A stretch of 64,000 bases of DNA, taken from positions 50,282,001-50,346,000 of the forward strand of contig OX597821.1 in the NCBI GenBank assembly GCA_951406725.2. The letters run 5' to 3'. The position numbers are program-made. Source of the DNA: Octopus vulgaris (lineage: Eukaryota). Position 1 is the stretch's first letter. Every line of letters starts with the position of its first letter. Positions 28,596 through 31,500 of this stretch are shown one piece after another.

Positions 28596-31500
28596 TATGT
28601 AGATATACACACATGCATATATACACATACACACACACATATATATGTATGTATGTGCTTATCCGAGTACATGTATTTGTGTCTCTTTGTCTTGGCATCA
28701 AGTGGTAGTTGTGAATAAGTTTCAGTCATAATACAAATAGTGTCATTCATTTCCAATATTCTGTGAAAACATGTCTAACCATGAGGAAATATTAGCTTGC
28801 TTGAAAGTAGGTTATGGTTGGTGTCAGGAAAGGCATCCAGCTATAGAAAATCTGCTTCAAATAAACTCTGTCCAACCCATGCAAATAGGGAAAAGTGAAT
28901 GCTGGATGAGGATGATGATTATATATATATGGTGAAGAGAAATGTTTATGACTGTGCTATGTATGGCATTGCTGTCAATGCCAATAACCAAATCATTATC
29001 ACAGCTGAAGCAGATGGAACACTGAAGTTCTGGAAGTTCAAGTCAAAACAACTTTTAAAAGAACTGAAACTCAACAGCTATATTGCCAAAATTTTACTAC
29101 ATCGTGAAAGGTAAATAAACCACTGACTGTGTATATGTCAGATTAATGAGAGAGGAACTGGAATCATGGGGACAAGTTGCATATGAACCAAGAGGTGCAT
29201 GTCTCATTTGTAACACTTCACATGCAGATATAGGATTATTTACCATCTAGTTCACTTTACTGAATGATTGGTATTAGGAAGGGCATCCAGCTGTAAAAAA
29301 ATCTTGCCAAAACAGTCACAGAAGTTTGGTGCAGGCTTCAGCCTGGCTGGCTCTTGTGGTACCATCCCACCTACGCTAGCATGGAACATGGACAATAAAT
29401 GATGATGATGATGATGATGATATATATATACATATGCATCAAGTTCCTGACAATTTGCTGTGCTAGAGAAGACATGCCAAGCTAAGTAAAATTGTGGCTG
29501 TCCATACTTACAGGCATGTCTTCTACGTGTCTCTCTCAGTCAAGAGATCCTAGTCTTGTGGACTCATGGGTGCTGGTGGCATGTAGAAGTACCCGTGCTG
29601 GTGCCACATAAAACCACCCATGCCAGTGCCACTTGAAGAACCCATAGTGGTTGACACCAGTAAAAACACCCATGCCAATACCCATGTTGGAACCACATAA
29701 AACCACCTACTACATATTGTAAAGTGGTTGACATGAGGAGGGGCATCCAGCTGTAGAAACCAGGCCAAAACAGACAAAAGGAGCTTGGGCAGCCATCAAG
29801 CTGGCCAGTACCTGTCAAACTGTCCGACCCATGCCAGCATGGAGAACAGACATTACAAGATGATGATGATGATAATGATGATGATGATACACGTACACCC
29901 ACATATACACATACACAGATGCATTTACTTATATGTGTGAGTGTGTGTGAGGTATTGTTGGGGTGATAGAATTAATTAAGTTTCCTAGTATTCTCATTAC
30001 GTTGTTACTGACATCTAGATTTGGCAACAGGTTTAAACATTAGACATAATATATAATAATAAGTAGTCATTGTTAAATAATACATCTCTTTATATAGCAT
30101 TCATTCCATTACAGTGTGGTTTTCACTAAAATATATAAATAGTTCCTCACTTCACTTTTAGGACATTCATAGATTTTTATATTAGAATACTTCTTTTGTT
30201 TGTTTTGTTTTTGATGGTTTACACAGATATTAAACCTAAGATTGTTTCTTGGTGAGTAATTAAAGATTTGACGCCCCTCTCAGCACCTCAAAAATAATCA
30301 TTTTTAACATTACCACATGCTCAATGAATGTGTATACTCAGCCAATTAGGATGACAAGGGTTCCAGTTGTTTTGATCAACAGAACAGCCTGCTCGTGAAA
30401 TTAATAAGTGGATGAGTACTCCATAGATACATGTACTCTTGACATAGTTCACGTGAGATTCAGCATGACACACAGTGTGATAAGGCTGGCCCTTTGAATT
30501 ATACACACTACTCCTTTTTTTCCAGCTGACTGGACTGGAGCAACATGAAATAAAGTATCTGACTCAAGGACGCAATGTGCTGCCAGATATTGAACTCACA
30601 ACCTTACGACTGTGAGCCAGATATCCCAACCACTTAGCCACATACCTTCACATAAAAGTTTAAAGTTGATTAAATTAACCTCAGTACTTAATTGATATTT
30701 TATTTTATTAATAACAGATGGATGAAAAGCAAAGTTGAGTTCAGTATGATTTGAACTCAGAACCTAAAGAACTGTAAAAAAATACTGTAAGCGTTGTTCT
30801 GCTGCCACCTCCAACAGCAGCAACAACAACATCTCTATATTTAAACTGGAAGTATTTCAGAAGAACAAAATAGAAATTCAACATTTATGGCAATAACATG
30901 TTTTTTTTTATGAAAATACAGATAAAACTAGTGTCTAAAAATAGGTGCTAACTTTCCATAAAAATACATCTATAATTAAACAAAGTCAATATCATGGAGG
31001 AAAAAAAAATCATTTGTTACATTTTATTGTTTTAATTATAAAACAAAATTAAAACTATATTTACTTCAAATATTTTTCAAAACTGAATACATTAAGATAG
31101 CTCTGTAAATTTTCATATACTGCCAATCAATTTTTCAAGCAATAATGTTCTAAGTGGATGCACAACCAATTATTTATTAACTATGAAATGGAAGTCATAC
31201 TTATTTTTGTAGCTAAGGGATTAATAATAAATTGTATCCAAGAGCACAATATACTACTGTACAATATATGATATATATGATTGTTAATATAAAGATCACA
31301 ATCCATGTACTTCTAATGAAACATAAAAGAAAAATGTTTTTACTCCAAGAGAATATATCTACCTGTCTCTGCTTATCTATTTTCACTTTACAAGAAACAA
31401 CCACTCCTATGAATTTAGAGAGATAGTAATGAGGACATATGCCAGTATATTGCCATTATACAACACAAAAACGATTTCAGTGGAACTTACCAGTATCCCT

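What the first reader, a model, noticed from the sequence alone, without database searches (positions are those of the whole stretch)
28921..29265. Orphan WDR36/Utp21 exon with retained donor, fused to a (TA)n tract
Seen: about 60 codons of WD40 sequence start directly at the atatatat after a SINE tail, have no acceptor, carry a +1 frameshift near 28943, and end at AG|gtaaat followed by ~150 bp of intron-like sequence. No other WDR36 exon is evident in 64 kb. Inference: a captured piece of a housekeeping gene, not the functional locus. From memory, vertebrate WDR36 has an intron just before the AHK motif; if octopus shares it, the YGEEK junction here is spliced while the downstream intron is retained, implying a partially spliced RNA template.
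Basis: partly seen in the sequence, partly recalled or inferred. Interest (0 to 1): 0.7.

Follow-up and report, generated by a model that had tools for sequence, protein, structure and literature searches.

The report
Orphan decayed WDR36 exon fragment
A broken, stand-alone copy of one exon and the start of the next intron of the ribosome-assembly gene WDR36 sits between SINE repeats in an octopus-like genome; it is a dead gene fragment, ordinary in kind, whose only open point is whether it was copied through RNA or DNA.

Summary
Window 28928-29110 (+) encodes the stretch of WDR36/Utp21 that matches residues 472-531 of Octopus bimaculoides WDR36. Identity is 5 of 6 residues in one frame, then 44 of 54 in the next, so one extra T in the run 28945-28947 breaks the frame. 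Homology ends at AG|GTAAAT (29110|29111). No credible acceptor precedes it: a (TA)n/(GAT)n SINE tail abuts it.

No other WDR36 piece exists in the 64 kb. Only TE remnants give other Pfam hits. Three replaced residues (Y478, M482, E498) are never seen in 122-131 orthologue representatives. It is therefore a non-functional orphan fragment, not the gene.

One correction: the intron-like stretch is about 110-132 nt, not 150. A 5'-truncated, same-strand SINE starts at about 29243.

It maps to window 28942-28944. Whether octopus shares it could not be tested, because no cephalopod genome was reachable.

I favour, at about 0.5, a LINE-mediated copy of a partly spliced pre-mRNA. A DNA-level fragment is the main rival.

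The parts
28646..28930 (+). Left SINE-like repeat, ending in a (GAT)n(TA)n tail (tail about 28905-28930)
   Evidence: Six other copies in the window at 67-72% identity. 28815-28928 matches the SINE profile at positions 336-494, E 2.5e-11.
28928..28945 (+). Six codons reading YGEEKC, matching parent residues 472-477 (YGEERC), in the frame one base off from the rest
   Evidence: The only hit with at least 5/6 matches among 127,966 six-frame positions; parent sequence.
28945..28947 (+). T-run holding one extra T, the +1 frameshift
   Evidence: Follows from the two frames of homology meeting here.
28947..29110 (+). 54 codons matching parent residues 478-531 (44/54 identical), plus AG, the first two bases of the Ser532 codon
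   Evidence: Pfam PF25168 E 2.1e-12.
29111..29116 (+). Splice-donor-like GTAAAT exactly where protein homology stops
   Evidence: Sequence. It matches the recalled metazoan consensus MAG|GTRAGT at 8 of 9 positions; that consensus comes from memory, not from a call.
29111..29242 (+). Unique intron-like stretch, about 110-132 nt; its 3' limit is uncertain between 29222 and 29243
   Evidence: No other copy in the window. No Rfam match inside it. Fold z-score 0.34. SINE profile alignment starts at 29243, envelope at 29222.
29243..29432 (+). 5'-truncated SINE on the same strand as the WDR36 piece, with an (ATG)n(TA)n tail
   Evidence: nhmmer E 1.7e-37, profile positions 314-499 of 515. Copies aligned. 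Tandem ATG at 29399-29421.

Best explanation
This is a dead, stand-alone fragment of WDR36 (yeast Utp21, a small-subunit processome protein).

What it contains:
- the last 16 nt of what is exon 13 in human terms;
- the whole of the next exon-equivalent (166 nt plus one inserted T);
- the first 110-132 nt or so of the following intron.

It sits in a nest of SINEs in repeat-only DNA. It encodes nothing usable: the frame is broken, there is no acceptor, and invariant residues are replaced.

Most likely origin (inferred, not shown):
- LINE reverse transcriptase copied an incompletely spliced WDR36 pre-mRNA. The upstream intron was already removed and the downstream intron was still present.
- Either the copy was primed at a SINE lying in that downstream intron, or the enzyme switched template from the SINE RNA at 29243-29432.
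- The cDNA was cut short 16 nt into the upstream exon.
- It was joined into the (TA)n tail of an older SINE.

The fragment has decayed neutrally since.
For: Shown:
- Identity as WDR36-derived, with the parent protein itself a WDR36/Utp21 (human WDR36 E 7.9e-299).
- Frameshift.
- Homology stops at a GT donor.
- It is the only WDR36 piece in 64 kb.
- The other Pfam hits among 140 ORFs of at least 70 aa are all TE-type: transposase, transposase HTH, RT.
- Decay: Y478 where 116/122 representatives have H and none Y; M482 where 129/129 have V, I or L; E498 where 109/131 have G or S and none E; N488 in 6/131 against D in 115/131.
- 9 of the 11 amino-acid differences fit a single G>A or C>T change. 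This is read from the window codons against the parent residues; the parent codons themselves are unknown.
- The piece belongs to the Octopus lineage: 49/60 identical to O. bimaculoides against 39/60 to Argonauta hians.

For the RNA route:
- The human gene has an intron at or within one base of codon 537, which aligns to window 28942-28944. The copy is continuous across that point yet keeps the next intron.
- The piece is followed directly by a same-strand, 5'-truncated SINE with its tail and preceded directly by a SINE tail. That is the layout of LINE-mediated 5' chimeras and 5' transductions as described for human L1 (PMC11838501, passages).
- Elements in this cluster sit head-to-tail in each other's tails: 28300-28545, 28646-28930, 29243-29432, and about 29450-29880.
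Against: - The octopus intron position is untested. If the parent has no intron at C477, the structure is equally what a plain DNA copy would give.
- No target-site duplication can be read, because both flanks are (GAT)n(TA)n (28905-28930 against 29404-29429, 92%).
- The right SINE is 24% from a crude 10-copy consensus (range over copies 9-27%). The WDR36 piece shows about 9 derived replacements in about 137 non-synonymous sites, roughly 7% by my arithmetic. That argues against SINE and fragment being born together by template switch. It still fits an old SINE already resident in the parent's intron.
- The extra T lies 2-5 nt from the human-equivalent junction, not at it, so it says nothing about splicing.
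- Retrocopies that keep an intron are a minority among retrocopies (recalled).
Confidence: 0.5

Rival explanations
1. A DNA-level copy. A piece of the WDR36 locus (exon plus intron) was duplicated or used as filler at a break. Alternatively it is the last recognisable relic of a larger duplicated segment later shredded by SINE insertions and deletions. The parent exon simply has no intron at C477.
For: - The exon-intron junction is retained.
- SINEs are dense here, so flanking SINEs are expected by chance. In O. vulgaris SINEs are 11.6% of the genome (PMC13282606, passage).
- The right SINE looks older than the fragment.
- No TSD or poly(A) marks a retro-event.
Against: - The 5' end of homology falls exactly at a SINE tail, and no remainder of the exon lies upstream of the SINE cluster. 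This model therefore needs either a coincidence or an insertion-associated deletion.
- It requires the octopus gene to lack an intron that human has. Intron positions are often shared between vertebrates and lophotrochozoans (recalled, not tested).
Confidence: 0.35
2. This is the true WDR36 locus of the species, with very long introns, and the extra T is an assembly error.
For: - The donor is good, and 49/60 residues match the O. bimaculoides protein.
- A single-base error in a T-run is a common assembly fault (general knowledge).
Against: - No acceptor, and the exon homology runs straight into a SINE tail.
- No neighbouring exon within about 29 kb or 35 kb.
- His478, present in 116/122 representatives, is replaced by Tyr, which none has. 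M482 and E498 are also never seen.
- The 90%-identity cluster of the O. bimaculoides protein holds 4 sequences, but their species could not be listed.
Confidence: 0.04
3. The fragment has been exapted. Its intact donor (29110|29111), with a cryptic acceptor such as the AG at 29003-29004, serves as an exon of a non-coding or host transcript.
For: - The donor matches the recalled consensus at 8 of 9 positions.
- Octopus TEs and lncRNAs are reported to be expressed in brain (PMC9115989, search listing only).
Against: - No expression data are available here.
- No host coding exon was detected among the 140 ORFs scanned.
- The substitution pattern is that of neutral decay.
Confidence: 0.06

Closest known systems
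Semi-processed (partly spliced) retrocopies, and LINE-mediated 5' chimeras or 5' transductions (U6/L1, Alu/L1 and mRNA/L1 chimeras; PMC11838501 passages; fungal example PMC2104539, abstract start in the listing)
   Same: - A cellular RNA piece lies 5' of, and on the same strand as, a 5'-truncated retroelement that carries the tail.
- The piece is cut short at its own 5' end.
- The insertion is into A/T-rich target DNA.
   Different: - The 3' partner is a SINE with a (GAT)n(TA)n tail, not a LINE with poly(A).
- No TSD can be read.
- The captured RNA would be a pre-mRNA carrying intron sequence.
- A single-event origin is not shown, and the age estimates do not favour co-birth.
Non-processed (duplicated) pseudogene fragments, or orphan exons
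   Same: Keeps an exon-intron junction, carries a frameshift and radical replacements, and lies away from the parent gene.
   Different: - Only about 315 bp.
- The 5' break coincides with a SINE tail.
- It is possibly continuous across a position where the parent may have an intron.
Functional WDR36/Utp21 (human WDR36 in 7mq8 chain LT; yeast Utp21 in 5jpq chain I)
   Same: The sequence aligns to one WD repeat region of the second beta-propeller (Pfam PF25168 positions 155-209 of 335; human residues 540-591).
   Different: It covers 60 of 894 codons, the frame is broken, and the conserved His is lost.

Membership tests
Functional WDR36/Utp21 gene | Open reading frame covering two beta-propellers plus the Utp21 C-terminal domain | tested here: not met
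   Only residues 472-531 of 894 are present in 64 kb, and the frame is broken by one extra T.
Functional WDR36/Utp21 gene | Family-conserved residues kept | tested here: not met
   Y for H478 (H in 116/122, Y in 0). M for V482 (V, I or L in 129/129). E for G498 (G or S in 109/131, E in 0).
Functional WDR36/Utp21 gene | Usable splice sites on both sides of the exon | tested here: not met
   A donor is present (29111 GTAAAT). There is no acceptor: homology abuts (TA)n.
WDR36-derived sequence (homology only) | Best match is WDR36/Utp21 rather than another WD40 protein | tested here: met
   Pfam PF25168 E 2.1e-12 against 1.2e-4 for the next family. 81% identical to O. bimaculoides WDR36. In the PDB search the single-repeat piece also hits yeast Utp12 slightly better than human WDR36 (7.2e-15 against 2.6e-13), so the assignment rests on the octopus protein and on Pfam.
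Classical processed pseudogene | No intron sequence, and a poly(A) tail | tested here: not met
   About 110-132 nt follow a GT donor where homology ends. There is no poly(A).
LINE-mediated chimeric or 5'-transduced retrocopy | Cellular piece 5' of, and in sense with, a 5'-truncated retroelement carrying the tail | tested here: met
   SINE at 29243-29432 on the + strand, profile positions 314-499 of 515, with an (ATG)n(TA)n tail.
LINE-mediated chimeric or 5'-transduced retrocopy | Target-site duplication flanking the whole unit | tested here: inconclusive
   Both flanks are (GAT)n(TA)n (28905-28930 against 29404-29429, 92%). This cannot be told apart from two SINE tails.
LINE-mediated chimeric or 5'-transduced retrocopy | A parental intron is missing from the copy (proof of an RNA intermediate) | not testable with these tools
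   The human intron at codon 537 is documented and maps to 28942-28944. No cephalopod genome is reachable to see whether octopus has it.
Duplicated (DNA-level) pseudogene fragment | Colinear with the parental genomic DNA, intron sequence included | not testable with these tools
Only the exon-intron junction is seen.

The most novel reading that the evidence does not exclude
One LINE-driven event in an octopus ancestor reverse-transcribed a nuclear, half-spliced WDR36 pre-mRNA together with a SINE and pasted it into the microsatellite tail of another SINE. That would be a cephalopod case of pre-mRNA capture by retroelement machinery. It would imply that octopus SINE tails act both as priming sites inside host introns and as preferred landing sites.
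Probability: 0.4. Interest if true: 0.35.

Novelty: new member of a known kind. Interest (0 to 1): 0.2.

Why it matters
On its own it matters little. Dead gene fragments are expected in a genome that is roughly half to two-thirds repeats (PMC13282606, passage).

It has two modest uses.
- For annotation, it can seed a false 'WDR36-like' gene model or a spurious exon.
- If the parent gene proves to have an intron at C477, it is a clean, datable example of retro-copying of an incompletely spliced transcript in a cephalopod. The activity of LINE and SINE machinery on host RNAs is of current interest in that group.

Tried and rejected
- Short ORF-type proteins that might show the parent exon with intron flanks: the near-length protein search with P0001 found nothing.
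- Listing the members of the O. bimaculoides WDR36 cluster to see the other Octopus species: the query could not be made.
- Remainder of the exon or other exons in the window: none.
- The intron-like 132 nt as a hidden repeat, a known RNA or a structured RNA. There was no significant self-similarity (best E 0.14). The 17 Rfam matches at E up to 1 all lie outside the island: 16 on the TA/CA microsatellites and one at 28356-28421, all far below the gathering scores. The fold is no better than shuffles (z 0.34).
- tRNA-like SINE heads by ARAGORN: 0 found.
- Position of human intron 14, to test whether the retained donor is a conserved intron: no paper with a c.1774-1776 numbered WDR36 variant was found. 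This stays untested.
- Papers on WDR36 in octopus: 6 hits, all about 'Octopus' perimeters in glaucoma studies. No octopus paper was among the 12 listed of 262 for retrocopy terms.
- Pol III read-through (3' transduction) from the left SINE: rejected, because a TTTT at 29092-29095 would stop Pol III well before 29242 (the termination rule is recalled).
- Relative ages of SINE and fragment: only a crude 10-copy consensus was possible. Subfamily mixing inflates it, so it is not decisive.

Full report
**What is there**

Window 28929-29111 (+) translates without a stop to 61 residues (P0001). Its best Pfam match is PF25168, the second beta-propeller of WDR36/Utp21 (E 2.1e-12, profile positions 155-209 of 335). 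The next family scores 1.2e-4.

The best protein in the large database is WD repeat-containing protein 36 of Octopus bimaculoides (P0002, 894 aa). It is 44 of 54 identical over residues 478-531. P0002 is itself a bona fide WDR36/Utp21: E 7.9e-299 to human WDR36 in 7mq8 and 1.3e-130 to yeast Utp21.

In the PDB search the one-repeat piece hits yeast Utp12 marginally better than human WDR36. The assignment therefore rests on the octopus protein and on Pfam.

**The frameshift**

The parent reads YGEERC just before residue 478. The window reads YGEEKC at 28928-28945, in the frame one base off.

I scanned all 127,966 six-frame hexapeptide positions of the window. This is the only one with at least 5 of 6 matches. 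One extra T therefore sits in the run 28945-28947.

No frame-corrected or exon-joined version of the piece was sent to any search or fold. Searches used the single-frame translation only, and the six codons in the other frame were compared by position.

**The ends**

On the 5' side, homology begins at the last TAT of a (TA)n tract (28920-28930). That tract follows (GAT)n.

- Together they are the tail of a repeat spanning 28646-28930, which has six other copies in the window.
- The repeat matches the same SINE profile as the downstream element.
- There is no pyrimidine tract plus AG, so there is no acceptor.

On the 3' side, homology ends at AG|GTAAAT (29110|29111). The AG fits the first two bases of the parent's Ser532 codon.

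A profile built from nine window copies of the downstream SINE aligns from 29243, with its envelope from 29222, to about 29432. That corresponds to profile positions 314-499 of 515. It is a 5'-truncated SINE on the same strand, ending in (ATG)n(TA)n.

The intron-like stretch is thus about 110-132 nt. It has no Rfam match and folds no better than shuffled sequence (z 0.34).

**Not the gene**

- tblastn of the whole parent and of 40-residue tiles with permissive settings finds no other WDR36 piece in 64 kb.
- Of 167 stop-to-stop ORFs of at least 70 aa, I scanned the 140 that passed a complexity filter. Apart from this piece, the Pfam hits are transposase fragments and HTH domains (10357-11037), a Tc3-type transposase HTH (44770-45165) and a reverse transcriptase (57462-58334).
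- I compared the piece with 132 WDR36/Utp21 representatives. These are 132 of the 149 other proteins returned; the remaining 17 gave no hit to this segment.

| Position | Window residue | Orthologue representatives |
|---|---|---|
| 478 | Tyr | His in 116 of 122; Tyr in none |
| 482 | Met | Val, Ile or Leu in all 129 |
| 498 | Glu | Gly or Ser in 109 of 131; Glu in none |
| 488 | Asn | Asp in 115 of 131; Asn in 6 |

The other seven differences fall at variable positions.

Nine of the eleven differences fit a single G>A or C>T change. This is read from the window codons against the parent residues. The parent codons are unknown, so it is an inference.

**Lineage and age**

The piece is 49/60 identical to O. 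bimaculoides and 39/60 to Argonauta hians WDR36-like (P0153). It shares many Octopus-specific residues, so it arose in the Octopus lineage.

At two of the differing sites (K476, C480) it agrees with Argonauta. That means either the copy predates changes in the O. bimaculoides gene or the window comes from another Octopus species. The species was not determined.

About nine derived replacements in about 137 non-synonymous sites give roughly 7% neutral divergence. Using the calibration quoted for O. vulgaris repeats (JC 0.09 is about 25 My; PMC13282606, passage), that is very roughly 20 My. This is my arithmetic and a rough figure.

**RNA or DNA**

Two papers bear this out.

- PMC2765470 lists an intronic variant numbered from c.1609 on NM_139281. 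The held text reads 'c.1609-89G A'.
- PMC2664842 lists IVS13+89G>A.

c.1609 is the first base of codon 537. In the alignment, codon 537 is the A of AHK; the numbering is confirmed by R529 falling on the R of GIHRGSF. The human intron therefore lies at or within one base of the start of codon 537. That maps to octopus C477 and window 28942-28944.

The copy runs straight across this point yet keeps the next intron. If octopus shares the intron, the template was a half-spliced RNA. If it does not, nothing distinguishes an RNA copy from a DNA copy on this ground. No cephalopod genome could be reached, so this stays open.

Evidence favouring an RNA route:
- The layout is SINE tail, then the piece, then a same-strand 5'-truncated SINE with its tail. 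This is the layout of LINE-mediated 5' chimeras and 5' transductions (PMC11838501, passages).
- The elements here sit in each other's tails.
- The exon homology breaks exactly at a SINE tail, and no remainder lies upstream.

Evidence against a single-event template switch:
- No target-site duplication can be read, because both flanks are (GAT)n(TA)n.
- The right SINE is 24% from a crude ten-copy consensus, against about 7% for the fragment. That fits better with an old SINE already sitting in the parent's intron and copied along with it, by either route.

The extra T lies 2-5 nt from the junction-equivalent. I read it as an ordinary slip in a T-run.

**Verdict**

The main interpretation, an orphan non-functional WDR36 fragment, is well supported (about 0.9).

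The partly spliced RNA template is the reading I favour, at about 0.5. A DNA-level fragment follows at about 0.35. A true exon with an assembly error, and exaptation, are unlikely.

In kind this is ordinary: a new instance of a known class.

**What stayed unchecked**

- The parent locus and its introns.
- Presence of the fragment in other species.
- Expression.
- The species of the window.
- The members of the parent's protein cluster (not completed).
- The collections metagenome contigs and viral contigs, which were closed.
- Supplements of the cited papers, which were not consulted.

Raible et al. 2005 on intron conservation, Buzdin et al. on chimeric retrogenes, and the splice consensus are recalled and were not seen here.

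Noticed in passing
window 28300-29880: Four SINE-type elements lie head-to-tail on the + strand, each starting in or right after the microsatellite tail of the one before: 28300-28545 with (TA)n(CA)n, 28646-28930, 29243-29432, and about 29450-29880. This suggests that the tails are preferred landing sites.
   Followed up: partly
window 9950-10300: A very long trinucleotide tract, (CTT)n/(AAG)n-like, follows an (ATT)n run at a SINE tail. It gives poly-S/K/R/L ORFs in all frames.
   Followed up: no
window 18000-20000: GC falls to 0.205. 18381-18788 is a long degenerate TA-rich microsatellite, giving an IYIYIY ORF.
   Followed up: no
window 10357-11037 (-), 44770-45715 (+), 51846-52229 (+): Remnants of mariner/Tc1-type transposons. 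Pfam Transposase_1 matches at 10357-10611 (E 9.7e-10), HTH domains at 10699-11037, and a Tc3 HTH at 44770-45165. The ORFs at 45359-45715 and 51846-52229 look transposase-like by eye but gave no Pfam hit at 1e-3.
   Followed up: partly
window 57462-58334 (+): A 291-aa open frame with a weak reverse-transcriptase match (RVT_1, E 1.5e-5, below the gathering score). It is probably the 3' part of a LINE, a candidate partner for the SINEs.
   Followed up: no
window 28551-28692 and 29883-29956: Sub-threshold Rfam 'miRNA' matches (mir-297, mir-3149 and others, 18-48 bits against gathering scores of 49-105) fall on TA/CA microsatellites on both strands. I take them to be chance.
   Followed up: yes
window 29570-29632: The 5' region of the SINE family carries a variable number of 25-nt subrepeats, consensus GTGCTGGTGCCACATAAAACCACCC. 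This makes its 5' end hard to define.
   Followed up: partly
P0002 residues 476 and 480 against the window and Argonauta: The fragment keeps K476 and C480 as in Argonauta (C480 also in several other molluscs), where O. bimaculoides WDR36 has R and G. Either the copy predates these changes or the window is from another Octopus species.
   Followed up: partly
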